From positions 160,001 through 224,000 of the forward strand of contig CAXXET010000006.1 in assembly GCA_963666115.2 (NCBI GenBank): DNA of 64,000 nucleotides, given 5' to 3'. Below the pieces are notes generated by a model. That model ran no database searches. It was given only the letters and a program-made list of their open reading frames with translations, and had not been told where the DNA came from. Of this stretch, positions 8,906-19,109 are shown piece by piece (position 1 is the first letter of the stretch; the number at the start of each line of letters is the position of its first letter). A program made the position numbers and the translations under genes. This DNA comes from Dehalococcoidia bacterium (GTDB taxonomy: Bacteria; Chloroflexota; Dehalococcoidia; UBA6926).

Positions 8906-11170
8906 CTAGGTTGTGCCGTTGTGCGTTGCCCAGAAGACGTTTTCCGGGTTGAGGGGTATCTGGCGGTGGCGGATGTTCGTCGCGCGGCTGACGGCGTTGC
9001 CGACTGCCGGGAGCGGCGGAATGATCGGCACCTCACCGACGCCCCTGACGCCAAGCGGGTTCTCCGGCGCGGGACCGCCGACGAAGATCGTCTCGATCAT
9101 CGGCAGGTCGAGCGCGGTGGGCATCCGGTAGTCGAGGAAGTTGGCATTCTTGAGGATGCCGTCCTCGCCCCACTCATAGTTCTCCCACAACGCCCAGCCG
9201 ACACCCTGCGCGACGGCGCCCTGCACCTGGCCCTCAACGGCCATCGGGTTGATGGCGCGGCCGGGGTCCTGGAAGGCGGTGTACCTGGCGATGGTGGCGC
9301 GGCCCGTATCGTCGTCGATCTCAACTTCGCAGATCTGGACGCCGGAACTGGTGACGGGGCGCACGCCGGTGGCGAGGCCGTTGCCGATAATCGCGCCGGT
9401 GCCGCGCCCAACGTTGTTGGCCGCAAGCTCATTAAGGCTCACGGTCTGCTCCGGGTTGTCACGAAGGGAGAACGTCCTGTCCGCGTAGTCGACGTCGGCG
9501 GCATCAGCCTGGAATCGCTCGGCGGCGAGGTCCTTGAGCTTGCCGATGAGGTCTTCGGAGGCGTTCTTGACGGCCATGCCGGTCACGTACGTGATGCGGC
9601 TGCCCCATGAGCCGTCGGTGTAGCCGACCGCGTCGGTGTCGCCGACGGTGGAGCGGACCTCTTCGACGGTGACGCCGAGCTCCTCGGCGGCGATTTGCGC
9701 CATGGACGTGCGCGTGCCAGTGAGGTCCACCGAGCCGACGATGAGGCTGAACGTCGCGTCCGCGTTGAGCTGGATGGAGGCGGTGGACGTGCCGGCGCCC
9801 TCGCGGCGCATTCCGATGGCAACACCGCGGCCCCGTCCCTCAGGCACCGGGGTCGTCCAGGACTCGTGGCTCTTGACGGTCTCAAGGATCTCCTTGAACC
9901 GCGTCACGGGGAGGGCCATGCCGTCACTCATCGGCGCGCCGTCATCCGTGATGTTGGCGATGCGGAGATCGATTGGGTCCATGTCCAGCGCCTCGGCCAA
10001 CTCGTCCATCATCGTCTCAATGGCGAAAGCGCCCTCCGGGAGACCCGGCGCGCGGTACGCCTGCGAGCGGGACTTGTTGGTGAGCACGTCGTAGCCGTCG
10101 GCCTGGAAGTTGGGCAGCTTGTAGGGGGAGAGGCCGGCGACGAGGATGTTGTTCACGTAGAGCGCGGAGCCGGGGAGGCATCCGGCATCGAGGTAGAACT
10201 TGGCCTCGAACGCAGTGACCTCGCCGTTCTTGTTGGCGCCCGCCTTGATCCAGCAGTAGGCGTCCGGCGCGGGGCCGGTGGCGCGGAAGACCTCGTCCCG
10301 GCTGAGGACGGTCTTGACGGGAGAGCCCGTCTTGAGAGCAAGCAGGGCGGTCGGAAGCTCAGGGACGGTGAATCCCTTGCCGCCGAAGCCGCCGCCGATC
10401 TCCAGGGGCACCACGGTCACCTTATTAAGGGGAATCTGCAGGAGGGCGGCGTTCTGGCTCTTGTTGGCGAAGGATGCCTGCGTGGTTGTGTAGATGGTGA
10501 CGTGGCCGCTGGCGTCAACATCGACGGTGCAGGCCTGGGGCTCGATGTAGCCCTGGTGCACCATGCCGATGCGGTATTCGCTTTCGAGGACGACATCCGC
10601 CTCTTCATAGCCCTTGGCGACGTCGCCGCGGGCGAGCGCCATATGCACGGAGAGGTTGGTCGGCTTGTCGCCGCGGCCCTCGAGGCTCCGCGTGCGGACT
10701 TCCTCGTGGATAATCGGCGCATCGTCCTTGATGGCGTCCTCGATGCCGACGACGGCCGGGAGCGGCTCATACTCCACCTTGATGAGTTCAGCGGCCTCTT
10801 CGGCGACGTGCGGGGAGGTGGCGGCGACGGCGGCGACGGGGTGGCCGTGGAAGAGGACGCGATCCGATGCCATGAGGAACTGCCGCAGGTACACGGCGTC
10901 CAGCGTGACCTCACCGCCCACCTGCTCATCGGAGTCGAGCGGGGGCAGGTCCTTGTGGGTGACGACGCCCTTGACGCCGGGATAGGCCTCCGCGGCGGAT
11001 GTGTCGATGCTCTTGATGCGCGCGTGGGCGTGCGGACTGCGGAGAATCTTGCAGTGGAGCGTGCCGGGCAGCGTGAGATCCGGCGCGTATACCGCCCGCC
11101 CCTTGACGCGCTCGACGGCGTCGACACGCGCGATAGGCTGTCCGATGGCCTTCTCAGGTGTTGCAACCAT
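8906..11170 (-). CDS. Xanthine dehydrogenase-family molybdopterin-binding subunit
   Basis: LRSPHAHARI, HQGYIEP, IGGGFGGK, AYRAPG, GQVQGAVAQGVG, GVRGVGE. Confidence 0.93.
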   Translation of the reverse strand: MVATPEKAIGQPIARVDAVERVKGRAVYAPDLTLPGTLHCKILRSPHAHARIKSIDTSAAEAYPGVKGVVTHKDLPPLDSDEQVGGEVTLDAVYLRQFLMASDRVLFHGHPVAAVAATSPHVAEEAAELIKVEYEPLPAVVGIEDAIKDDAPIIHEEVRTRSLEGRGDKPTNLSVHMALARGDVAKGYEEADVVLESEYRIGMVHQGYIEPQACTVDVDASGHVTIYTTTQASFANKSQNAALLQIPLNKVTVVPLEIGGGFGGKGFTVPELPTALLALKTGSPVKTVLSRDEVFRATGPAPDAYCWIKAGANKNGEVTAFEAKFYLDAGCLPGSALYVNNILVAGLSPYKLPNFQADGYDVLTNKSRSQAYRAPGLPEGAFAIETMMDELAEALDMDPIDLRIANITDDGAPMSDGMALPVTRFKEILETVKSHESWTTPVPEGRGRGVAIGMRREGAGTSTASIQLNADATFSLIVGSVDLTGTRTSMAQIAAEELGVTVEEVRSTVGDTDAVGYTDGSWGSRITYVTGMAVKNASEDLIGKLKDLAAERFQADAADVDYADRTFSLRDNPEQTVSLNELAANNVGRGTGAIIGNGLATGVRPVTSSGVQICEVEIDDDTGRATIARYTAFQDPGRAINPMAVEGQVQGAVAQGVGWALWENYEWGEDGILKNANFLDYRMPTALDLPMIETIFVGGPAPENPLGVRGVGEVPIIPPLPAVGNAVSRATNIRHRQIPLNPENVFWATHNGTT

Positions 11171-11301
11171 ATGCTTCTACCTCCATTGCGGGCGCTCATT
11201 CGGGGGCGTCCGCGTCCCTATGCCGCCGCTTGCCGATTGGAGCCTTTGCGGCGACAGGGTTAGTGTAGCGGGGCGGGCGCGCGCGGACAAGCAACACGGG
11301 G

Positions 11302-11421
11302 CTACTTATCCATATTGGCCATGTCTACGGCGGCACGGGCTATTATCTTGGCGCAGTCCACGATTTCCGCCTCGTCGATGTGGGCGTCAATCTGCGCGCC
11401 GAGGTCCGGTGTCGTTGTCAT
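11302..11421 (-). pseudogene. 39-aa mini-ORF, probable internally deleted M20/ArgE-DapE peptidase
   Basis: Strong RBS AGGAGGT; MTTTPDLGAQIDAHIDEAEIV-DCAKIIARAAVDMANMDK resembles the two termini of the M20 protein at 58823-60058. Confidence 0.45.
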
Positions 11422-11481
11422 CACTCACCTCCTGCCATAGCCTGACGACACGGCAATAGTAACGCGTTGGCTACGACGATA

Positions 11482-13860
11482 CTATCTGCTAAGCATGTTC
11501 TCTATCGCGTAGTAGAGGTCATCAGTGAAGTAGCGGCGGCCCGTGTCGGGCGGGGTAAACACGAACATGTGCTCCGCAGCATATGGGGAAACAGTATAAT
11601 CTGAGCCTTGCCCAGTGGTGCTGCCGAGTTCGACGGCGTATGCCATGATGGGGTTGTGAGGAAACGGCGTACCCGTGTCCTTTTCAAATCGCAGCGCAAC
11701 CTCTTCAAACAGGTCCAACGTGGGATCGTTGCGGGGGAACTCCGTGTGGCGGATGACGTACAGGTCAACGTCGCCTGCAAGCGGGAAGGCGATGGTTCGG
11801 TGGGCGACGTGGCTCTGTCGCAGCAGGTCTCTGTACTGGGCCCCGGGATGCCGTCGGGCTTCGATCAGGCCAAACAGGGTAACGAATTCCGCCTCGCCTA
11901 TCTGAGTAGTCAGCCATTCCTCGCCGACAACGAAAGCCGGATCGTCCAATGACACACGGGCCATCAAGCCCATCATATTCGCGTCGCGAGCATCGATGTC
12001 GTCCTGGAACCAGGAGACGGAGCCGGCGCTGAAGGTGTTCTGCCTGGCGACGCCTGCGGCCTCTTCGATGAACCGCCGAAACTGGTGTGTCCATTCAATC
12101 TCATCGGCGCTGATGCCGTCCTGGGCCCAGGGGCGGCCGGGGATGGATGCCGCGAGTTCGTCGTCCTGCCCCTGGAGTGCGAGCAGGAGGTCCGCGTACT
12201 CGTCCAGCCACCGACCCTCAGTGCGACTGATGCCGTTCAGCAGCCAGGGGAGGCGGGCCACGGCCGACGCAAGGTCGTCACCATGCAGGTATTGGGTGTC
12301 CAGTATTAGGTGATGAAGATTTCTCAGGCCCAGGACGCTCTGTTCAGACGTTTCGGGGGATTCAGCGTGGGCGTTCTCAATCACGGCGGTGACCGTATCA
12401 GGCGCCAGCGGGGTGACATCGTTGACGAAGTCCAGTATTTCCCGAACGTATTCGCGCTCTATGCCGGGCATACCGTCATCAAGCCACGGAAAGGTGGTGA
12501 GCGTGGGCGGGAGGGTCACCTCGCCGCTGAATCTGGCGTCCAAGAAGCCGGCATACGTGACGAGCAATTCAGTTTCGCCCACGTCCACATCATCCTGGAG
12601 CCAGGGGCGGGCTGTTAGCGTTGAGATGAATTCGGCGGTCTGCGGGCCCTGACTCTCGAATATGATGGCAAGGTTTTTCAACGGCACGACATCCTCAATA
12701 GCGATGCCATCCCGCACCCACCCGTATGCCAAGACAGACGCCAGCACGTCAGGCTGCTCTGCGGCAAGAGATGCGACAGAATCCGCCAGATGTTGGATTG
12801 CAGGAGCTTCCCAGCGGCCGACATCGTCGGAGATCCAGTCGTAGTTGAGGAGAGTCTCCTGATAAGCGCTGGCATCGACATCCTGAATGGCCAGCAAGTC
12901 GGCGAATGCGCGGAGGGCGCGGGTTTCATCGTTATCGAGGGAATCCGCCATCCAGGGATACGTCAGCATTATCTGCAAGGCTTGGGCGTCCTCTGGGCCT
13001 GCCTCTTGAAAGAGCTGTTCAAAGTTGCGCAGGGAATCGTTATCCCCGCCGTCAATGCCGTCTGTGACCCACTGGTATGACGCGACGGTTCTCACGGCGT
13101 CCACATGGTGGTCACCCGCCTCGATGATGAGTCTGGTCAGTTGGCCGACGGCGTCCGACTCCGGGGAGGAGACGGCGTCCTGCATCCAGGGATAGTCCGC
13201 GATGAGACGGGCCATATCGATCCGTTCAGGGGAGGCGGCAGGCGAGATATCAACGCCGGGGACGCCTATCCGCATCGCGCCGATGCCGGTCACCGTGTGC
13301 GCCTGAAAGCCGGGCGCAGCAATGTGAGCGAGCTCTTCCAGGGCTGTTGCCTCATCAGCCGCTGCGCCATCGGGAATCCACTGGTATGAGGCGAGGGTCG
13401 AGCCGAGGTTGTCGTCTACGTCTGCTGCGGCGCGTATGGCGCGAAAGGCGCGGCGATCATCGGGGCTGATTGCGCCGTTGGGGCTCATCCATGGGAGGCT
13501 GAGTACGATGTCCGCAACGGCGGGGACCTCCATCAGCAGCCAAGAGAAGTCGTCAAGCGCGCCGGCTTCTTCGGCGGTGATGCCGTCGGCGACCCAGGGG
13601 AGGGCCGCAATCTCCTCCCCAACTGTGTCATCGCTGAAGCTTATGCGGCGGATTGCAGCCCAGGCGATCCAGTGGACCGTGTCCGGCGGGGATTGGAACC
13701 AGGCGAGTCGTTCGGCGGCAGTTGGCTCAGGGGTTGGGGTGGGGATGGGAGACGGGGTGACGGCGGGGGTGGGGTCAGCCTGACGGCAGGCGCCGAGCGC
13801 GACGACCACGAGGGTAAGCGCGCCCAAGGCCAGTGCGAACCGCAAAACACGGCGCATCAT
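11482..13860 (-). CDS. Lipoprotein with ~14 W-x-x-D-G helical repeats; paralogue of 15204-18149 lacking the HExxH domain
   Basis: Lipobox ALGAC, Pro/Thr linker, repeats LPWVADGI, YQWVTDGI, YGWVRDGI, FPWLDDGM, RPWAQDGI. Confidence 0.8.
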   Translation of the reverse strand: MMRRVLRFALALGALTLVVVALGACRQADPTPAVTPSPIPTPTPEPTAAERLAWFQSPPDTVHWIAWAAIRRISFSDDTVGEEIAALPWVADGITAEEAGALDDFSWLLMEVPAVADIVLSLPWMSPNGAISPDDRRAFRAIRAAADVDDNLGSTLASYQWIPDGAAADEATALEELAHIAAPGFQAHTVTGIGAMRIGVPGVDISPAASPERIDMARLIADYPWMQDAVSSPESDAVGQLTRLIIEAGDHHVDAVRTVASYQWVTDGIDGGDNDSLRNFEQLFQEAGPEDAQALQIMLTYPWMADSLDNDETRALRAFADLLAIQDVDASAYQETLLNYDWISDDVGRWEAPAIQHLADSVASLAAEQPDVLASVLAYGWVRDGIAIEDVVPLKNLAIIFESQGPQTAEFISTLTARPWLQDDVDVGETELLVTYAGFLDARFSGEVTLPPTLTTFPWLDDGMPGIEREYVREILDFVNDVTPLAPDTVTAVIENAHAESPETSEQSVLGLRNLHHLILDTQYLHGDDLASAVARLPWLLNGISRTEGRWLDEYADLLLALQGQDDELAASIPGRPWAQDGISADEIEWTHQFRRFIEEAAGVARQNTFSAGSVSWFQDDIDARDANMMGLMARVSLDDPAFVVGEEWLTTQIGEAEFVTLFGLIEARRHPGAQYRDLLRQSHVAHRTIAFPLAGDVDLYVIRHTEFPRNDPTLDLFEEVALRFEKDTGTPFPHNPIMAYAVELGSTTGQGSDYTVSPYAAEHMFVFTPPDTGRRYFTDDLYYAIENMLSR

Positions 13861-13961
13861 TACCTCCCTGATGCTCCGGTAGGTTTAGGGGATAGTACAC
13901 CATTACGCCCTCGCTCTAACCCTCCCCCAGAGGGGGGGCGTCCCGATGGATTCCCGCTTTC

Positions 13962-15183
13962 GGAGACCTTTGCGCAACCGTGGTCTCGCCTATTTTGGGG
14001 GACGCAGGTGGCGAGAGGGCGTGTGCTCTGTCAAGAATCGATGGTGTCCGACGGGCTGTCTGGCCGGTCATGTAGGCCCGATTTCAGGGGTGTGGCGGTA
14101 TCCGGCGCTCGGATTGTGGGGTCGTGCCCGCTCAGGCCGGGGCGGGGACGAGGTGAATCATCTTCCTGAGGTTGTAGGCCATCAGCTTCAGGTACATCTC
14201 CACCCGGTTTCGGCGCAAGCCCCGGTAGCGCACGCGACTGTAGCCGTAGCTCCGTTTGAGCGTCCCAAAGACCTTCTCGACCGGGGAGCGGCGCGGCGCA
14301 ATCAGGTCATTCCGCAATTGGAGTCGCGGCGGCAACACCCGCTGATGCTTGTTGGCCCGATGCATGATCCTGTCCTTGATGCCCATCTCCTTCAGCCGCC
14401 GTCGCCGCGCTTTCGATTCGTAGGCGCGATCGCCGTACACCGCCCGCTCATCCCCGCTGATCAGTTCGTCCGCCACCTCGCTCTCATACACCACGGCCGA
14501 TGTGAATTCCGCCTGGCGCACGATGCCCGTCCCCTCGTCCACCCCCGCGTGCGCCTTGTAGCCGAAGTGCGTTCGCGATCCGCGGCCGGTGCGGCTCCAG
14601 CCCGCATCGGGGTCGGTCTCGCTCGATGCGCCAGGCCCCGCGCTCATCGGAGGGCGTCTGACCTGCGCCTCCACCAGCGTGGCATCCATCAATGTCCCCG
14701 ACTTGACGAGCAATCCCCGCTTGTCCAGCTGCGCGCCCAGCTCCTGGAAGAGCGTCTCCGCCAGGCCGCGCCGCCCCAATTCCGTGCGGAAACGGCTGAT
14801 CGTCGAGTGATCCGGCGCGTCATCCTCAAGCCCCAGCCCCACGAAGCGGCGGAAGGAGATGCGATCCGTCAGCGCCTCCTCCATCTGGGGATCCGAGGCG
14901 TTGTACCACTGCTGCAACAGGAGGATCTTCACCATCGTCAGCGGCGGATAGCTCGGCCGGCCCTCCGGCGCCGAATAGATGTCATCCACCAACCTGGCGA
15001 AGCGATCCCAATCGATCTCTGCGCCGATGCGCTCCAAGCGCGTATTCCTGCCGAGCTTCTCCGGCAGCAGCGTCTCGGCCAATGACGGCTGTCCCATCTG
15101 ACGATGCATCGCTCTCCCTCCCCTCACACCATCCGCGCTCACCCCAATTTTGGCCTGACTGGGAGAGTTATGCAAAGGTCTCC
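13962..15183 (-). mobile_element. IS5-family insertion sequence, 1222 bp
   Basis: Terminal inverted repeats GGAGACCTTTGCGCAAC (13962-13978) and GTTATGCAAAGGTCTCC (15167-15183), 15/17 match; flanking duplication TTTC (or CTTTCG if the ends are GAGACC/GGTCTC); single transposase. Confidence 0.92.
14132..15109 (-). CDS. IS5-family DDE transposase
   Basis: GRPSYP, LQQWYNASDPQMEEALTDRISFRRFVGL, PDHSTISRFR, MDATLV, FGYKAH, YGDRAY, RSPVEKVFGTLK, MAYNL; start at ATG 15109. Confidence 0.93.
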   Translation of the reverse strand: MHRQMGQPSLAETLLPEKLGRNTRLERIGAEIDWDRFARLVDDIYSAPEGRPSYPPLTMVKILLLQQWYNASDPQMEEALTDRISFRRFVGLGLEDDAPDHSTISRFRTELGRRGLAETLFQELGAQLDKRGLLVKSGTLMDATLVEAQVRRPPMSAGPGASSETDPDAGWSRTGRGSRTHFGYKAHAGVDEGTGIVRQAEFTSAVVYESEVADELISGDERAVYGDRAYESKARRRRLKEMGIKDRIMHRANKHQRVLPPRLQLRNDLIAPRRSPVEKVFGTLKRSYGYSRVRYRGLRRNRVEMYLKLMAYNLRKMIHLVPAPA

Positions 15184-15203
15184 TTTCGCGGGAAAAAGAG
15201 GCG

Positions 15204-18149
15204 TTAGGAGTTTTGGATGGTGACTTTGGCGCCGCCGTGGATGTCGTCGAAGAGGTTGTGGAAGTCTTCGAGTTTGTCCTGGGGGGTGTTGGCCAGGAAG
15301 GCATCGTAGATTCTTTGATCCGTAATCGGCTTGATCCAACCGGAGTCGCCGGCATCAACATAGAGTTGACGCATGGCGGCGGAGACGGCGTCGTGTCCCA
15401 AGCGCAGGTACATCTCCATGATGAAGAGTTCGCCAAAGGCGTAGTCGCAAATGCCGCGATCGGCTGCGCGGCCGGGATCAACCTCTCTAAGGTGATAGAG
15501 GTCGGAAATGGTATCGATTCCGCGACTCCAGCATTCGCGCCGGGTGTCTTCAATCAGGTTAGCGCGCCGTTCTTCCAAGGTTTCCTGGCCCAAGGCATCT
15601 CGCGCGTAATCGGGCAGGAATCCGGCTGCGCCTTCCGTCCACCATATCGGGGCGCGTGTGTGACCACCCCAGTACATATGACTGAATTCATGGAAGATTG
15701 CCAAATGGAAATTGGGATTGTATTTGGGCGGAGCGACCGCGACATATGACCCCATCGCAAATGCAACGTTATATTGAGGCTCTTCTCCTGCCTGCAAATT
15801 GGGTTCTATCATCACGGCAAGGGCAAACTCATGGGGGAATCGGACTCCCATAAAATGCTCCAGTTGTGTGATGATCTGTTCCATTAGGTCAAGAGTGGGA
15901 TCATCCGCCGGGAACTCCGTATGCCGGATCCCATAGAGCCTTATTTCGCCGGTCAGGGGGAGTTCGATCATTCGCTCCGCCAAGTGGTATTCGTCAAGCA
16001 AGGCGCGGAACTTATGCTCCGAGCGGGACAGGGCATCAATATACGCCATCAGGACGACACGATCACGCTCAGAACTAACCCCACGGAACCAATCCCAATT
16101 CGTGTTTTCGGGGTTACGCCACGTTTCGGACACTGCTAATCTCGCGACAAGACTTGAATCAAGATAGTCAATGTCGCTCTGGAACAACGGCAACGATCCA
16201 ATTTCTATTGCAATGCTGCGATTCTGTTCACCGCTTTCCTCCAACAGCCGACGGTATTGGTGCATCCATTCACGTTCGTCGGCGGAGATCCCGTCCAGCG
16301 CCCAGGGGCGTCTGAGAATCGATTGCGCCAAGTCTTCATTCTCGCCATCAAGTTCTCTCAGGAAAACAGCGTACTCAGCAAGCCACCACCCCTCGATCTT
16401 GACGAGACCGTCCGACAACCAGGGGAGATGGATGACGTCGTTGGCCAGCTCGCCATAGAGCCGCCTGGCGTCATTAATGGCGCCACTGAACCTCTGGAAG
16501 TTGTAGATCGCGTCCTCGAACTTCTCGTCAGAATCAAGAGCTGTTCCGTCAATGAGGGCATCGACGGTTTCAGGCGCGATCGGAGAGACGTTCTCAATGA
16601 GCCAGAAGGACTCCGCAATGTATATACGTTCACTGATTGCTATTCCATCGTCCAGCCAGGGATAGGTGATTATGCGCGGAGGCATGGTGACGCCGGGAGG
16701 GATATCCCAGCGCAGGAAGCGTTCGTACTCCGCCAAGAGCGTCTCTTCATCCTCTTCCACGCTGTCCTGAATCCAGGGGCGAGAAGTTAGCGCCACAATG
16801 AATTCACCGGTCTCATCACTGCGTTGTTCGAAGATCGGCAGGAGAGCCCTGAGCGAATCCAGGTCGGACTCCACAAGGTCATCTTGCACCCACTCATATG
16901 CGAGGACGGAATCCACGGCCTCCGGGTAATCCGGCCCAAGCAATTGCAGGGTGTCGGACAACGCGCGAATACCGGTTGCCTCGTCGGCGGTGATCGAATC
17001 GGCCAGCCACGGATAACCGAGGAGTGTCAGGACTGCCGCAGAATCATCCGCAGAACTGTTGGCCAGAATGGAACGCATTGAGGCTATGTCGGGGACTTCG
17101 CTCAACTCGAGTCCGTCCGCCACCCACGCATAGTCCAGGATAACGGGCAATGCGTCCGCGTCTTCCGGGCCGGCGTCTTCAAACAGGGATTCATAGCGCC
17201 GAATCCAACCGTATTCTGATCGGGCAATGCCGTCCTGCACCCAGTCATACGCCACGAGTGTCTTTAACGCATCTGCCTGGAGGTCGCCGGCTGATGCAGC
17301 CACTTCGCTCAGATCGCTGATGAAACCGGCCTCCGCCTGCGTCGCGTCGTCACGCGTCCAGTTGTAGCCCCACACCGTTTCCAAGGCGGCGTCTCCGCTC
17401 CGCCCTTCGACTTGAATCAACTTGCCCCAAGCGTTGAGCGCCGTCCTCTCGACCTCAGTCATATCGTCCTTGAGCCAGTCGACTTCAGCAAGCTCCCGCA
17501 GGAAGTCGATGCGCGGCGGTTCCTGCGCCGATGCCGGGCGGAGCCGCATTGCGCCGATGCCGGTCACGGTCTGGGCTTGAAAGTCCGGCGCGACGAATTC
17601 GGCGAAAGTTTCCAGCACATCGGCCTCTTCGAAAGTGACGGCTGCTTCAATCCACGAGTAGGATGCGAGCGTTGAGCCAAGGTTGCCGTCCGCGTCCGCT
17701 GCTGCGCGAACGGCTCGAAGCGCGCGGCGCTCATCCGCGGTGATGTTCGCAGTCGCGCCCATCCACGGAAATTCCAGCACGGCCGTGGCGATGGCAGGGT
17801 CTTGTTGCAGCAGCCACGAGAGATCGTCCAGCACGCCGGCCTCATCTGCGGTTATGCCATCGACGCTCCATGGCAAGCTCGCGACCTGCTGGCCGAGAGC
17901 CTCGTCTTCGACGTTGATTCGCCGGATGGCGGTTCTGGCGATCCAGTGGGCGGCGTCCGGGGGGTTGGCGAGCCAGGCTGCGTGTTGGTTGAGCTGCTCG
18001 GTGGACGTGGGGGTTGGGGTGGGGGTGGGTGGCGGCGGCGTAGGGATGGGGGTTGGCGTGGGGGCGGGCTCCTGGCAGGCGGTGAGGGCGGCGAGCGCAA
18101 GGATGAGGGCGCCAACGGCCCACCCGATCCACACAGTGCGGCGCATCAT
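15204..18149 (-). CDS. Lipoprotein with ~15 W-x-x-D-G helical repeats and a C-terminal gluzincin-like metallopeptidase domain
   Basis: Real start MMRRTVWIGWAVGAL...LTAC (lipobox) at 18149; repeats; IFHEFSHMYW...WWTEGAA (HExxH plus downstream Glu). Confidence 0.82.
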   Translation of the reverse strand: MMRRTVWIGWAVGALILALAALTACQEPAPTPTPIPTPPPPTPTPTPTSTEQLNQHAAWLANPPDAAHWIARTAIRRINVEDEALGQQVASLPWSVDGITADEAGVLDDLSWLLQQDPAIATAVLEFPWMGATANITADERRALRAVRAAADADGNLGSTLASYSWIEAAVTFEEADVLETFAEFVAPDFQAQTVTGIGAMRLRPASAQEPPRIDFLRELAEVDWLKDDMTEVERTALNAWGKLIQVEGRSGDAALETVWGYNWTRDDATQAEAGFISDLSEVAASAGDLQADALKTLVAYDWVQDGIARSEYGWIRRYESLFEDAGPEDADALPVILDYAWVADGLELSEVPDIASMRSILANSSADDSAAVLTLLGYPWLADSITADEATGIRALSDTLQLLGPDYPEAVDSVLAYEWVQDDLVESDLDSLRALLPIFEQRSDETGEFIVALTSRPWIQDSVEEDEETLLAEYERFLRWDIPPGVTMPPRIITYPWLDDGIAISERIYIAESFWLIENVSPIAPETVDALIDGTALDSDEKFEDAIYNFQRFSGAINDARRLYGELANDVIHLPWLSDGLVKIEGWWLAEYAVFLRELDGENEDLAQSILRRPWALDGISADEREWMHQYRRLLEESGEQNRSIAIEIGSLPLFQSDIDYLDSSLVARLAVSETWRNPENTNWDWFRGVSSERDRVVLMAYIDALSRSEHKFRALLDEYHLAERMIELPLTGEIRLYGIRHTEFPADDPTLDLMEQIITQLEHFMGVRFPHEFALAVMIEPNLQAGEEPQYNVAFAMGSYVAVAPPKYNPNFHLAIFHEFSHMYWGGHTRAPIWWTEGAAGFLPDYARDALGQETLEERRANLIEDTRRECWSRGIDTISDLYHLREVDPGRAADRGICDYAFGELFIMEMYLRLGHDAVSAAMRQLYVDAGDSGWIKPITDQRIYDAFLANTPQDKLEDFHNLFDDIHGGAKVTIQNS

Positions 18150-18317
18150 TATCCCCCTGCTGATACGGCATGCTTTGGGGATGATAGCGCATTGGTGCGG
18201 GGGCGGGGGTATGGGGTTTGGTTGGGTGTGGGCGTATGATTGGGGAGTTGTGGTGTTGTGGCCGGCGGCGGTCAGGCGGTGCGCGGGGAATTGGTTGAGT
18301 GGTGAGTGGAGAATCTC

Positions 18318-19109
18318 GTGAGCAGGTTTGTATCGCTTCATTTGTTGGTTGGGGCGGTTTTGGTTTTGGCAGTGGGGTTCGTTGGGGGGTGTTTTGGGGG
18401 CGGCGGGAGCGGCGGGGATGGTGAGGGGGACGTGCTTGTGCCTGCGCCTTCGGCTACCGCTACTCCGGCGGCTACGATGATTCCTTTGCGGCCTGCCAGT
18501 ACTCCTACTGCTTCCGCTAGTCCCACCGGCGTGGGGAATGAGCCGACTGTGACGCCTGTTCCGGCGGGGCCGACGGCTACTGCGGAGCCTGCGGGGTGGT
18601 GGGTGGTTGCGGAGTCGACGTGGGAGGAGACGTTCCATGTTTCGGTGGAGATTTATGGGGCTTCCACCGTGACATCGGAGGGGGAGTTCCGGGCGCGGAC
18701 CCGGCTTGAGAACGTTGGGGACGAGTCGCAGGAGTATATCCGGTGGAGCCAGTTCGATCCTGCCGTTCCGACGTGGATGGCGCTGCCTGCGCCGCCCGTT
18801 TCCGATGACACTGGGGGGCGGCCTGGGCTGCGGCTGATCGCGCTCCATGCTGACGATGATGATTTCGGGTCGGTGGAGGAATTTCCCAAGACTGAGACGG
18901 GTTCGCTGGAGCCCGGGGGCGTCGTTGAGCGGGAGGTGTCCTGGGATTTGACGGTGGCGGTTTCGGGTTCGCGGGAACGGTCGCCGGCGGCGGACGGGGT
19001 GTATACGCTTCGGGTTGAGCTTTATCCGCGGGGGGGGGATCAGTATCCGGGGTTGCCGGACGTGCTTTTGGAGTTTCCGATTCGGTTGGAGAGGGGAGTG
19101 GGGGGTTAG
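18318..19109 (+). CDS. Hypothetical lipoprotein
   Basis: Signal peptide with VGGC lipobox, Pro/Thr/Ala linker, beta-rich C-terminal domain. Confidence 0.6.
   Translation: MSRFVSLHLLVGAVLVLAVGFVGGCFGGGGSGGDGEGDVLVPAPSATATPAATMIPLRPASTPTASASPTGVGNEPTVTPVPAGPTATAEPAGWWVVAESTWEETFHVSVEIYGASTVTSEGEFRARTRLENVGDESQEYIRWSQFDPAVPTWMALPAPPVSDDTGGRPGLRLIALHADDDDFGSVEEFPKTETGSLEPGGVVEREVSWDLTVAVSGSRERSPAADGVYTLRVELYPRGGDQYPGLPDVLLEFPIRLERGVGG

What the first reader, a model, noticed from the sequence alone, without database searches (positions are those of the whole stretch)
11482..18149. Tandem pair of repeat lipoproteins: an intact gluzincin-like protease and a peptidase-less paralogue
Both genes have a lipobox, a Pro/Thr stalk and ~14-15 copies of a ~40-aa unit ([LYFR]-[PxDG]-W-x-x-D-[GDS]-[ILV]-x-x-x-E plus helices) that I cannot assign to a named repeat family. 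They share a conserved insert (FQAxTVTGIGAMR) and a post-repeat segment (IRHTEFPxxDPTLDLxE). The 981-aa copy continues into HEFSH...WWTEG, a zinc gluzincin signature. The 792-aa copy reads YAIENM at the equivalent position and stops, and has about one repeat fewer. The catalytic 3' part of the long copy looks more AT-rich. I infer a surface solenoid-protease system with an active enzyme and a non-catalytic binder or decoy, varying by repeat number. This is my best candidate for an undescribed system.
Basis: partly seen in the sequence, partly recalled or inferred. Interest (0 to 1): 0.75.

Follow-up and report, generated by a model that had tools for sequence, protein, structure and literature searches.

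The report
Repeat-fused surface zinc protease and truncated paralogue
Two neighbouring genes encode membrane-anchored proteins built from an uncatalogued 39-residue helical repeat; one ends in an M1-like zinc protease domain, and the other lost that domain's catalytic half long ago yet has been kept intact.

Summary
Genes 15204-18149(-) (981 aa) and 11482-13860(-) (792 aa) are 37% identical lipoprotein-type paralogues. Each has a Pro/Thr stalk and 13 detectable copies of a strictly 39-aa repeat, plus degenerate ones.

- **Repeat:** Pfam and NCBIfam do not cover it. A profile of the unit finds 891 protein clusters, and most of the best hits carry the same protease motif.
- **Long copy:** its C-terminus folds (pLDDT 92) as an M1-like gluzincin catalytic domain (VIA Z 19). 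H820, E821, H824 and E839 are invariant in 36 relatives.
- **Short copy:** it stops inside the active-site helix, and no remnant lies downstream. A 794-aa orthologue (75% identical, gap-free, same stop, last 142 residues 97% identical) sits on a contig that also holds a long-copy 3' end. The truncation and the pairing are therefore old.

The "binder or decoy" role is untested. Peptidase-less forms arose at least three times, once in a genome where no catalytic copy was found.

The parts
15204..18149 (-). Long paralogue, 981 aa: lipoprotein signal, Pro/Thr stalk, 39-aa repeats, post-repeat segment and gluzincin catalytic domain
   Evidence: ORF and translation. It has 38 relatives, and every full-length one carries HExxH-x14-E.
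18075..18149 (-). Signal peptide and lipobox (LTAC, Cys25) of the long copy. The Pro/Thr stalk follows at about 18000-18074.
   Evidence: Read directly from the sequence. The lipobox regex matches 23 of the 40 proteins examined. Lgt and LspA are present in the genome.
16215..17888 (-). Repeat region of the long copy, residues 88-645: 13 HMM-detected 39-aa units, interrupted by the FQAQTVTGIGAMR insert
   Evidence: Per-unit E-values in the genome search range from 8e-14 to 5e-8.
15207..16232 (-). Modelled C-terminal 342 aa of the long copy (residues 640-981): last helices, a beta subdomain and a helical subdomain of an M1-like thermolysin-type catalytic domain
   Evidence: AF2 model with pLDDT 92 and pTM 0.90. 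Foldseek finds 6a8z at E 4.9e-6. VIA finds 8sw0 at Z 19.2, 6a8z at Z 19.1 and thermolysin at Z 13.3. A profile search finds ERAP1 at E 0.006.
15633..15692 (-). Zinc-binding signature HEFSH (residues 820-824), then 14 residues, then E839 (WWTEG)
   Evidence: H820, E821, H824, W836, E839 and G840 are invariant in 36 aligned sequences.
13951..15194 (-). IS5-family insertion sequence of 1244 bp, with its transposase ORF at 14132-15085(-). It sits in the intergenic space, 9 bp after the long gene's stop and 90 bp before the short gene's ATG.
   Evidence: NF033581 at 4e-83, plus DDE_Tnp_1 and DUF772. The terminal inverted repeats are 28 nt long. Two further full-length copies at 94% identity occur in the genome. 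The element is absent from the related contig, which bridges 13893 to 15201 with 145 other letters between.
11482..13860 (-). Short paralogue, 792 aa: the same signal, stalk and repeats, but truncated inside the active-site helix with no HExxH
   Evidence: 37% identity to the long copy. A GGGAGG sequence lies just upstream of the ATG. The orthologue P0041 is 794 aa.
11929..13611 (-). Repeat region of the short copy, residues 84-644: 13 HMM-detected units. Each unit is predicted as a short helix, a long helix and a medium helix.
   Evidence: Differences from the orthologue cluster at repeat positions 12-15, 17-18, 28-29 and 31-32.
11485..11910 (-). Retained post-repeat segment and N-terminal beta subdomain of the former catalytic domain, residues 651-792. 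This is the most conserved part of the short protein.
   Evidence: There are 4 differences in 142 residues against P0041. The model shows a beta hairpin at 684-704 and a helix at 714-729, while residues 746-783 have pLDDT below 50.
11171..11481 (.). Spacer downstream of the short gene, with no remnant of the lost catalytic half
   Evidence: tblastn with residues 780-981 of the long copy and 700-901 of the third copy, run at E up to 100. No minus-strand hit falls here. The only nearby hit is at 11055-11192 on the plus strand, at E 12.

Best explanation
**What the locus is.** It belongs to a local expansion of an uncatalogued family of membrane-anchored, extracellular zinc metallopeptidases. Three paralogues lie within 27 kb.

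**Architecture of a full-length member**
- a lipoprotein signal (inferred from sequence);
- a Pro/Thr stalk;
- 13 to 15 copies of a 39-residue three-helix unit that stack into an alpha-solenoid (predicted);
- a short linker domain;
- a thermolysin/M1-like gluzincin catalytic domain. In it, H820 and H824 (of the HExxH motif) and E839 would hold the zinc, and E821 would act as the general base. This is inferred from the fold match and from invariance.

**Likely role of the solenoid.** It probably positions the enzyme away from the membrane and binds its substrate or another surface ligand. This is inferred from its modular pairing with peptidase, PPC and LRR domains in other proteins.

**The short gene.** It is an old derivative, cut inside the active-site helix. 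It keeps the anchor, the solenoid and the beta subdomain that lines the substrate cleft in such folds. It has lost all metal ligands, so it cannot be a peptidase.

**Why it is not a decaying pseudogene.** Since the truncation it has remained an open, indel-free frame. Its C-terminal remnant is nearly invariant and its repeat surfaces vary. It is therefore most likely a maintained, non-catalytic surface protein that binds the same kind of ligand as its catalytic neighbour.

**The IS5 element.** It is a later, strain-specific insertion into the roughly 100-bp spacer between the two genes.
For: **Protease domain**
- The AF2 model has pLDDT 92.
- VIA gives Z 19.2, 19.1 and 18.5 to M1 enzymes and Z 13.3 to thermolysin.
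- Foldseek gives probability 1.0 to M1 and M61 enzymes.
- A profile search gives weak hits to ERAP1, IRAP and F3.
- H, E, H, W, E and G are invariant across 36 sequences, including relatives at 21-28% identity.

**Repeat**
- The period is exactly 39 aa and the aligned units are shown.
- The P0002 model is all-alpha with pLDDT above 90 over the repeats.
- The unit profile finds 891 clusters at E <= 1e-3. Of the 145 newly listed hits, 99 carry HE..H..EG.

**Anchor**
- Signal and lipobox.
- Lgt and LspA are present in the genome.

**Short copy is old and maintained**
- P0041 is 794 aa with the same last residues. It shows 199 differences in 792 residues, and its only 2 gaps lie in the stalk.
- Residues 651-792 are 97% identical, against 62.5% for residues 216-500.
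- The P0002+P0041 clade has a long stem (0.84) and short tips (0.10 and 0.23).
- No downstream remnant was found.
- A rough estimate for codons 446-792 uses 45 amino-acid differences and at most 102 nucleotide differences in 1169 nt, over 790 non-synonymous and 251 synonymous sites. This gives dN/dS of roughly 0.25-0.45. It is an estimate, not a codon-model result.

**Pairing**
- A 4130-bp contig of run X4 covers the short gene and, after 145 unaligned letters, the last 123 nt of a long-copy gene. It has no room for the IS.
Against: - No biochemical or expression evidence exists. No RNA run holds the stretch, which says nothing either way.
- The last 40-50 residues of the short protein are modelled with pLDDT below 50. 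The retained remnant may not fold as it does in the parent.
- The near-identity of the short gene's 3' end to its orthologue could come from recent recombination rather than constraint. The adjacent long-gene end is likewise about 91% identical in DNA.
- The pairing is seen in one other contig only.
  - No second repeat gene lies within about 1.5 kb of the family gene in the relatives' loci.
  - No close orthologue of the short copy exists in the 21 other genomes of the genus (best 39-43% identity).
- G014 has a repeat-only gene, and no catalytic domain was found there at E <= 1e-5. Peptidase-less forms therefore need no catalytic partner.
- The solenoid has no natural structural relative to suggest a ligand.
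- The tree is the quick IQ-TREE version with SH-aLRT support only. The careful search did not finish.
Confidence: 0.62

Rival explanations
1. The short gene is simply a pseudogene. A nonsense or deletion event removed the catalytic half, and the remainder is drifting with no function of its own.
For: - It lacks every catalytic residue and ends inside the active-site helix.
- Its last 40-50 residues model poorly.
- The stem branch leading to it is long, at 0.84.
- An IS now separates it from the upstream gene.
- One member of the P0032 cluster is split into 498-aa and 215-aa pieces, so decay does occur in this family.
Against: - An orthologue at 75% identity keeps the same 792-794-codon frame, with no internal gap or stop and the same terminus.
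- The C-terminal remnant is the best-conserved part, at 97%. Drift would not produce that pattern.
- Rough dN/dS for the 3' 347 codons is about 0.25-0.45.
- A GGGAGG ribosome-binding sequence is intact.
- No trace of the lost half remains, so the event is old. Yet the rest of the gene has not decayed.
Confidence: 0.15
2. The solenoid is mainly a structural envelope component, such as a spacer or an S-layer-associated surface coat, rather than a substrate binder. On this reading the short copy and the repeat-only forms are surface-coat variants. Their variable repeat faces would be driven by phage or host recognition pressure and would have no functional link to the neighbouring protease.
For: - Repeat-only forms of about 700 aa persist at full length in several assemblies: 704 aa in 5 of 5 members of one cluster, and 699-703 aa in 3 of 5 members of another.
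- In G014 such a form stands without a detectable catalytic copy.
- Variation between orthologues falls on particular repeat positions, while the Trp, Asp, Glu and Leu core positions stay fixed.
- Repeat number varies by whole 39-aa units between paralogues.
- The family is an accessory gene family: 16 of 21 genus genomes, 0 of 19 other genera in the sample, and variable chromosomal places.
Against: - 99 of the 145 best repeat-bearing proteins carry the peptidase motif. Others carry M60 or PPC domains. The module is therefore tied mainly to proteolysis.
- The short copy keeps, and conserves best, the cleft-lining beta subdomain rather than the repeats.
Confidence: 0.15
3. The C-terminal domain is not a peptidase. 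It would use the HExxH-E scaffold for other chemistry, as LTA4 hydrolase's epoxide hydrolase activity or HExxH oxygenases do, or it would be a non-catalytic binding domain.
For: - It is not a member of any curated peptidase model.
- The spacing is x14, not x18, and GxMEN is absent.
- The VIA list also includes LTA4H (Z 17.5), TAF2 (Z 14.3) and a ChlB HExxH oxygenase domain (Z 6.6).
Against: - The top matches are all active zinc peptidases.
- The full ligand set and the general-base Glu are invariant over 36 diverse sequences.
- Extracellular placement with a lipoprotein anchor fits a hydrolase acting on external polymers.
Confidence: 0.06

Closest known systems
M1 family zinc aminopeptidases. 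The closest is the two-domain M1 enzyme of Deinococcus radiodurans (PDB 6a8z). Others are puromycin-sensitive aminopeptidase (8sw0), tricorn-interacting factor F3 (1z1w) and ERAP1.
   Same: - The catalytic domain has the thermolysin-like fold: VIA Z 19.2, 19.1 and 18.5 with rmsd 3.0-3.2 over 224-237 residues.
- It has HExxH plus a downstream Glu in a W..EG context.
- Both combine a catalytic domain with a helical repeat domain. That M1 enzymes carry a C-terminal ARM/HEAT-like domain is recalled, not tested here.
   Different: - The spacing is HExxH-x14-E rather than x18.
- There is no GxMEN exopeptidase motif.
- There is no Pfam Peptidase_M1 hit even at E 10.
- There is no N-terminal beta-sandwich domain.
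- The repeat module is N-terminal, much longer and of a different unit.
- Sequence identity to solved M1 chains is 9-16%.
- Endo- or exopeptidase specificity is unknown.
M61 glycyl aminopeptidases (PDB 7xyo, 8j9d), M60-like and other clan MA(E) surface metallopeptidases
   Same: - The clan-level fold matches: Foldseek E 8e-6 to 7xyo and VIA Z 12.1-12.4.
- One repeat-bearing protein (P0178) carries a true Peptidase_M60 domain instead. The repeat therefore serves several MA-clan enzymes.
   Different: There is no profile match to M61 or M60 in the window proteins. Structural scores are lower than for M1.
FP0506 elastase of Flavobacterium psychrophilum, a surface lipoprotein gluzincin of an unassigned family (PMC6414381; passages read)
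   Same: It is a predicted cell-surface lipoprotein with a gluzincin signature that no curated peptidase family claims. It was shown to degrade a host matrix protein.
   Different: It has 296 aa, no repeat module and M48-like remote similarity. It comes from another phylum. It is an analogy of kind only, and no sequence comparison was made here.
Alpha-solenoid repeat families (ARM/HEAT, TAL-effector/BurrH, designed helical repeats)
   Same: The prediction shows stacked helical units forming an elongated solenoid. The best structural rows are designed helical repeat proteins (Z 8-10.8) and TAL/BurrH (Foldseek E 2e-3, TM 0.10-0.13).
   Different: - The scores lie below the level at which helical-repeat matches mean kinship (note).
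- No Pfam repeat model matches the window proteins or 67 other bearers.
- The unit is 39 aa with three helices and a P-W-x-x-D-G...E signature.
Catalytically dead paralogues (pseudoenzymes) encoded beside active enzymes
   Same: The catalytic residues are lost, while the substrate-facing and targeting parts are retained and conserved.
   Different: Here the loss is by truncation of half a domain, not by point substitution. No regulatory or binding role has been shown.

Membership tests
Clan MA(E) gluzincin metallopeptidases | HExxH motif plus a Glu on a following helix as the third zinc ligand | tested here: met
   H820, E821, H824 and E839 are invariant in 36 aligned sequences. The motif is present in every full-length relative. 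The model places helices at model residues 175-184 and 196-213.
Clan MA(E) gluzincin metallopeptidases | Thermolysin-like two-subdomain catalytic fold | tested here: met
   VIA gives Z 19.2 to 8sw0, 19.1 to 6a8z and 13.3 to thermolysin 4m65. Foldseek gives probability 1.0.
Clan MA(E) gluzincin metallopeptidases | Zinc binding and peptide-bond hydrolysis | not testable with these tools
   This needs purified protein.
Peptidase family M1 (Pfam PF01433) | Match to the curated family profile | tested here: not met
   No Pfam hit for the whole protein at E <= 1, or for the C-terminal 248 or 365 aa at E <= 10. No NCBIfam hit.
Peptidase family M1 (Pfam PF01433) | HExxH-x18-E spacing (the spacing rule is recalled) | tested here: not met
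   The spacing is 14 residues in the window protein and in its close relatives.
Peptidase family M1 (Pfam PF01433) | GxMEN exopeptidase motif upstream of HExxH (the motif is recalled) | tested here: not met
   No G.MEN or MEN occurs in P0001, P0005 or P0002.
Peptidase family M1 (Pfam PF01433) | N-terminal beta-sandwich domain before the catalytic domain | tested here: not met
   The region before the catalytic domain is all-helical repeats. No Pfam hit.
Bacterial lipoproteins | Signal peptide ending in a lipobox Cys, with Lgt and LspA in the genome | tested here: met
   LTAC at residues 22-25 in the long copy and LGAC in the short copy. PF01790 at 173.5 bits and PF01252 at 128 bits in the genome. 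Lipidation itself was not tested.
Named helical repeat families (ARM, HEAT, TPR, TAL, PPR, mTERF, LRR) | Profile match of the repeat unit | tested here: not met
   There are no above-threshold Pfam hits on the repeat region of the window proteins, and none is shared among 67 other repeat-bearing proteins. The mTERF hit has E 0.32 at 10.3 bits, against a cut-off of 23.1.
Named helical repeat families (ARM, HEAT, TPR, TAL, PPR, mTERF, LRR) | Structural match of the solenoid | tested here: inconclusive
   Foldseek finds nothing at E <= 1e-3. Its best row is BurrH at E 1.8e-3, TM 0.10. VIA's best rows are designed repeat proteins at Z <= 10.8. The model has 792 residues, and the domain was not folded alone.
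IS5-family insertion sequence | DDE transposase of the family, terminal inverted repeats and several copies | tested here: met
   NF033581 at 279 bits against a cut-off of 140. The inverted repeats are 28 nt long. The genome holds 3 full-length copies. No clear target-site duplication is visible in the flanks.
Maintained pseudoenzyme (dead paralogue) | Loss of the catalytic residues | tested here: met
   There is no HExxH, and the protein ends at the active-site helix. No remnant lies downstream.
Maintained pseudoenzyme (dead paralogue) | Purifying selection after the loss | tested here: inconclusive
   A gap-free orthologue with the same terminus. 97% identity over the last 142 aa. Only a rough dN/dS of about 0.25-0.45 from counts. 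The orthologue's DNA could not be fetched for a codon model.

The most novel reading that the evidence does not exclude
The 39-residue P-W-x-x-D-G...E unit may define a previously unrecognised, widespread extracellular alpha-solenoid module (about 900 clusters at 50% identity). On this reading the module acts as the substrate-capture arm of several kinds of surface zinc protease. In this lineage a truncated, protease-dead copy would have been kept beside the active enzyme as a working partner, for example a competitor or adaptor for the same ligand. Its repeat faces would be diversifying while its cleft remnant stays frozen. That would be a two-gene 'enzyme plus dead twin' surface system in bacteria whose near-identical DNA turns up in sponge metagenomes.
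Probability: 0.25. Interest if true: 0.65.

Novelty: new variant of a known kind. Interest (0 to 1): 0.45.

Why it matters
- **An uncatalogued family.** The repeat and the catalytic domain are both invisible to Pfam and NCBIfam. Describing the two would give names to a sizeable block of 'hypothetical' surface proteins in uncultured Chloroflexota-type and other genomes.
- **Testable targets.** The finding points to a concrete target for protease assays and for ligand assays.
- **A natural experiment.** The truncated paralogue shows what the targeting module does on its own. Peptidase-less forms arose at least three times and persist.
- **Host interaction.** If the solenoid binds host or matrix proteins, the locus bears on how these small-genome bacteria feed on or interact with their surroundings. 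Pieces more than 97% identical occur in sponge-metagenome runs.
- **What is ordinary.** A repeat-bearing surface metalloprotease with a dead paralogue is a familiar kind of thing, and no new mechanism has been shown.

Tried and rejected
**Searches that found nothing**
- **Decayed peptidase remainder downstream of the short gene:** tblastn at E up to 100 found none on the right strand.
- **Pfam and NCBIfam:** the whole proteins and the isolated C-terminus gave only sub-threshold noise, namely Lpg0393_VPS9, GpA_nuclease, mTERF and internalin K on the Pro/Thr stalk.
- **ESM Atlas look-up of the repeat block:** no usable hit.
- **Natural structural relative of the solenoid:** none convincing.
- **Short-copy orthologue in other collections:**
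  - The JGI metagenome scan found only a 35%-identical full-length relative, L041.
  - The genus search found nothing above 39-43% identity.
- **Second repeat gene beside relatives' family genes:** none within the roughly 1.5-kb flanks held, or within 7.5 kb in L041.
- **RNA evidence:** no RNA holder is listed.
- **Promoter and terminator scan of 11100-18500:** no more sites than shuffles give, and none on the gene strand.
- **Literature:** two full-text searches found no description of this family. The terms were gluzincin / lipoprotein / helical repeat / Chloroflexi, and Dehalococcoidia / sponge / metallopeptidase / repeat proteins.

**Ideas tested and rejected**
- **A functional link to neighbouring genes:**
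  - The neighbours are unrelated housekeeping or miscellaneous genes.
  - The divergent 267-aa ORF is a genus core gene that lies far from the family gene in other genomes.
  - It is unrelated to the lipoprotein beside the third copy.
- **Recent gene conversion between the long and third copies:** DNA identity is only about 79% at both ends, and the flanks do not match.

**Not run**
- **Heterodimer prediction:** I make no binding claim, and the two proteins exceed the size limit.


Full report
**What is there.** On the minus strand lie two ORFs, 15204-18149 (981 aa, P0001) and 11482-13860 (792 aa, P0002).
- They are 37% identical over about 810 aligned residues.
- Both start with MMRR, a hydrophobic stretch and a Cys (LTAC and LGAC), followed by a Pro/Thr-rich stalk.
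- The genome encodes Lgt and LspA, so lipoprotein anchoring is plausible, though it is not shown.
One relative is named a Chloroflexi MAG by its source.

**The repeat is real.**
- The conserved Trp recurs at exactly 39-residue steps through the central block of each protein.
- 39 units from the three paralogues align with the signature x-x-L-x-Y-P-W-x-x-D-G-I-x-x-x-E-x-x-x-L. Only the Trp is invariant.
- A unit HMM finds 13 units in each window protein. The HMM was built from these units, so it fixes boundaries rather than giving independent proof.
- Single units score E 8e-14 to 5e-8 in a genome-wide search.
- The long copy has 8 units in its central block and the short copy has 7. This is the 39-aa gap.
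- The AF2 model of P0002 (mean pLDDT 80, above 90 over the repeats) is all-alpha. Each unit is a 4-residue helix at P-W-x-x, a helix of about 16 residues and a helix of 8-10 residues.

**The repeat is uncatalogued but widespread.**
- Pfam and NCBIfam give nothing above threshold on either protein.
- The unit profile, searched against 1.84 billion representatives, finds 891 proteins at E <= 1e-3, 372 at <= 1e-10 and 53 at <= 1e-30.
- Of the 145 newly listed proteins among the best 150, 99 carry an HE..H...EG pattern.
- I scanned 67 of those 145 against Pfam: all 46 without the pattern and 21 with it. No family covers the repeat.
- Other domains seen in those 67 proteins:

| Domain | Proteins | Note |
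|---|---|---|
| LRR | 4 | |
| PPC | 5 | 2 at or above the cut-off, 3 below |
| Peptidase_M60 | 1 | |
| CAP | 1 | |

- The relative P0043 has a second peptidase (PF04450) at its N-terminus.
- In a 300-genome sample of the phylum, 6 genomes from 3 other families have a unit hit at E <= 1e-5.
- Within the genus, 16 of 21 other genomes have a family member, and none of 19 genomes from other genera does.
- Structure searches give only designed helical repeats (VIA Z <= 10.8) and weak TAL/BurrH rows (Foldseek E >= 1.8e-3, TM about 0.1). This is generic solenoid likeness, not kinship.

**The catalytic domain.**
- Residues 640-981 of P0001, modelled with a 36-sequence alignment, give pLDDT 92 and pTM 0.90.
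- Foldseek puts M1 and M61 enzymes first: 6a8z at E 4.9e-6 and 7xyo at E 8.3e-6.
- VIA over 48,161 chains gives:

| Chain | Enzyme | Z |
|---|---|---|
| 8sw0 | puromycin-sensitive aminopeptidase | 19.2 |
| 6a8z | two-domain M1 enzyme, Deinococcus | 19.1 |
| 1z1w | tricorn-interacting factor F3 | 18.5 |
| 5fwq | LTA4 hydrolase | 17.5 |
| 4m65 | thermolysin | 13.3 |

- A sequence profile reaches ERAP1 only at E 0.006.
- H820, E821, H824, W836, E839 and G840 are invariant in all 36 sequences, including members only 21-28% identical.
- Y826, C873, C901, Y903, R927 and Y930 are nearly invariant. I infer, without a test, that Y903 or Y930 plays the transition-state Tyr role of M1 enzymes. I also infer that the two Cys form an extracellular disulfide.
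- Membership of M1 fails on four points:
  - the spacing is x14, not x18;
  - there is no GxMEN motif;
  - there is no profile hit;
  - there is no beta-sandwich N-domain.
Whether it is an endo- or an exopeptidase is open.

**The short copy.**
- It aligns with the long copy up to about residue 808 of the latter. That span covers the post-repeat segment and the beta subdomain (hairpin 684-704, helix 714-729 in its own model).
- It stops where the HExxH helix begins (...YYAIENMLSR*).
- Nothing resembling the lost half lies in the 311 bp before the next gene.
- It is not a recent copy of its neighbour.
  - In the quick ML tree it forms a 100%-supported clade with P0041, on a long stem (0.84) with short tips.
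  - P0001 groups with the third copy P0005 and with P0004.
- P0041 (794 aa, from a 4130-bp contig) is 75% identical, has its only 2 gaps in the stalk, and ends with the same residues.
- Identity to P0041 is uneven:

| Residues | Identity |
|---|---|
| 216-500 | 62.5% |
| 501-650 | 81% |
| 651-745 | 98% |
| 746-792 | 96% |

- Differences within the repeats pile up at unit positions 12-15, 17-18, 28-29 and 31-32. They spare the Tyr, Trp, Asp, Glu and Leu core.
- From the laid contig there are at most 102 nucleotide differences in 1169 nt. With 45 amino-acid differences in codons 446-792, I estimate dN/dS at about 0.25-0.45. This is a rough figure.
- The near-identical 3' end could alternatively reflect recombination.

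**Pairing and the IS.**
- Between the two genes lies a 1244-bp IS5-family element at 13951-15194.
  - Its transposase matches NF033581 at 4e-83.
  - It has 28-nt inverted repeats.
  - Two more copies at 94% identity occur elsewhere in the genome.
- It starts 9 bp after the long gene's stop and ends 90 bp before the short gene's ATG. The original spacer was therefore about 99 bp.
- In run X4 a 4130-bp contig covers the short gene. It then jumps from 13893 to 15201 with 145 other letters between, and continues for 123 nt (11 differences) into the long gene's 3' end.
  - That relative has the same long-then-short order and no IS.
  - I infer from the equal length that this is the contig that encodes P0041.
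- Elsewhere the pairing is not seen. Relatives' loci hold one repeat gene each.
- The genus genomes have 0-2 full-length copies at varying places.

**Other peptidase-less forms.**
- P0032 (701 aa) and P0033 (704 aa) end before the post-repeat segment and sit on separate long tips of the tree.
- Their 90% clusters contain 699-703-aa and 704-aa members from several large contigs, plus one split copy.
- In G014 the 707-aa gene has no remnant in the 1.5 kb downstream. No catalytic domain was found in that genome (92% complete) at E <= 1e-5.
- Loss of the peptidase has therefore happened at least three times, and the solenoid persists alone.

**Third copy and composition.**
- P0005 (901 aa, intact HEMAH) lies at G000:C6:151267-153972 on the plus strand, about 6 kb before the window start.
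- Against P0001 it is a mosaic, with 90% identity at residues 51-150 and 82-93% at residues 901-981. It has gaps of whole repeat units.
- DNA identity is only about 79%.
- All three genes have lower GC3 (0.68-0.75) than most neighbouring genes (typically 0.77-0.90). The long gene's 3' 60% is the most AT-rich part. This fits an accessory gene family.

**Habitat hint.** Pieces with 0-7 differences per 200-350 nt occur in coded run X1 and in two sponge-metagenome runs. Both a near-identical strain and a diverged relative occur in a marine-metagenome run.

**Verdict.** The functional 'binder or decoy' idea stays open.

Noticed in passing
window 13951-15194: An IS5-family insertion sequence of 1244 bp with 28-nt inverted repeats. 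Its transposase runs in the same direction as the flanking genes. Two more copies at 94% identity lie at G000:C6:405619-406861 and G000:C1:16952-18194. No clear target-site duplication is visible.
   Followed up: yes
G000:C6:151267-153972 (L008:6267-8972), outside the window: A third paralogue of 901 aa with an intact HEMAH...WWNEG. It is mosaic relative to the long copy and differs from it by whole 39-aa units.
   Followed up: partly
L008:4170-6062 (-): A 630-aa predicted lipoprotein (LAGCNSQ) with Pro/Thr linkers and no Pfam hit. It is transcribed divergently from the third paralogue. It is unrelated to the 267-aa ORF that lies beside the long copy.
   Followed up: partly
window 18306-19109 (+): A 267-aa ORF with an N-terminal hydrophobic segment, a Gly-rich linker and no Pfam or NCBIfam hit. 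It is conserved at 45-54% identity in 20 of 21 other genomes of the genus. It is therefore a real core gene of unknown function, and it is not linked to the protease family elsewhere.
   Followed up: partly
window 11302-11421 (-): A 39-codon ORF with a strong AGGAGG site lies between the short gene and the Mo-hydroxylase gene. The related X4 contig stops aligning at 11357, inside this ORF. The shared segment may therefore end here, and the ORF may be spurious.
   Followed up: no
window 13918-13940: A G/C-rich inverted repeat (ccctcccc-cagag-gggggggc) lies in the original spacer between the long and short genes. It may be a transcription stop or a processing site. The terminator scan did not call it, because it has no T run.
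   Followed up: no
window 8906-11170 (-) and L008:1060-2437 (+): The large Mo-binding subunit of a xanthine-dehydrogenase/CO-dehydrogenase-type enzyme lies about 22 kb from genes for the FAD and 2Fe-2S subunits, on the opposite strand. The repeat-protease paralogues and other genes lie in between.
   Followed up: no
P0043 (925 aa): A distant relative carries two peptidase domains. A PF04450-type domain (HEMVH...WLTEG) lies at the N-terminus and the family's own domain (HETAH...WFNEG) at the C-terminus, with the repeats between them.
   Followed up: no
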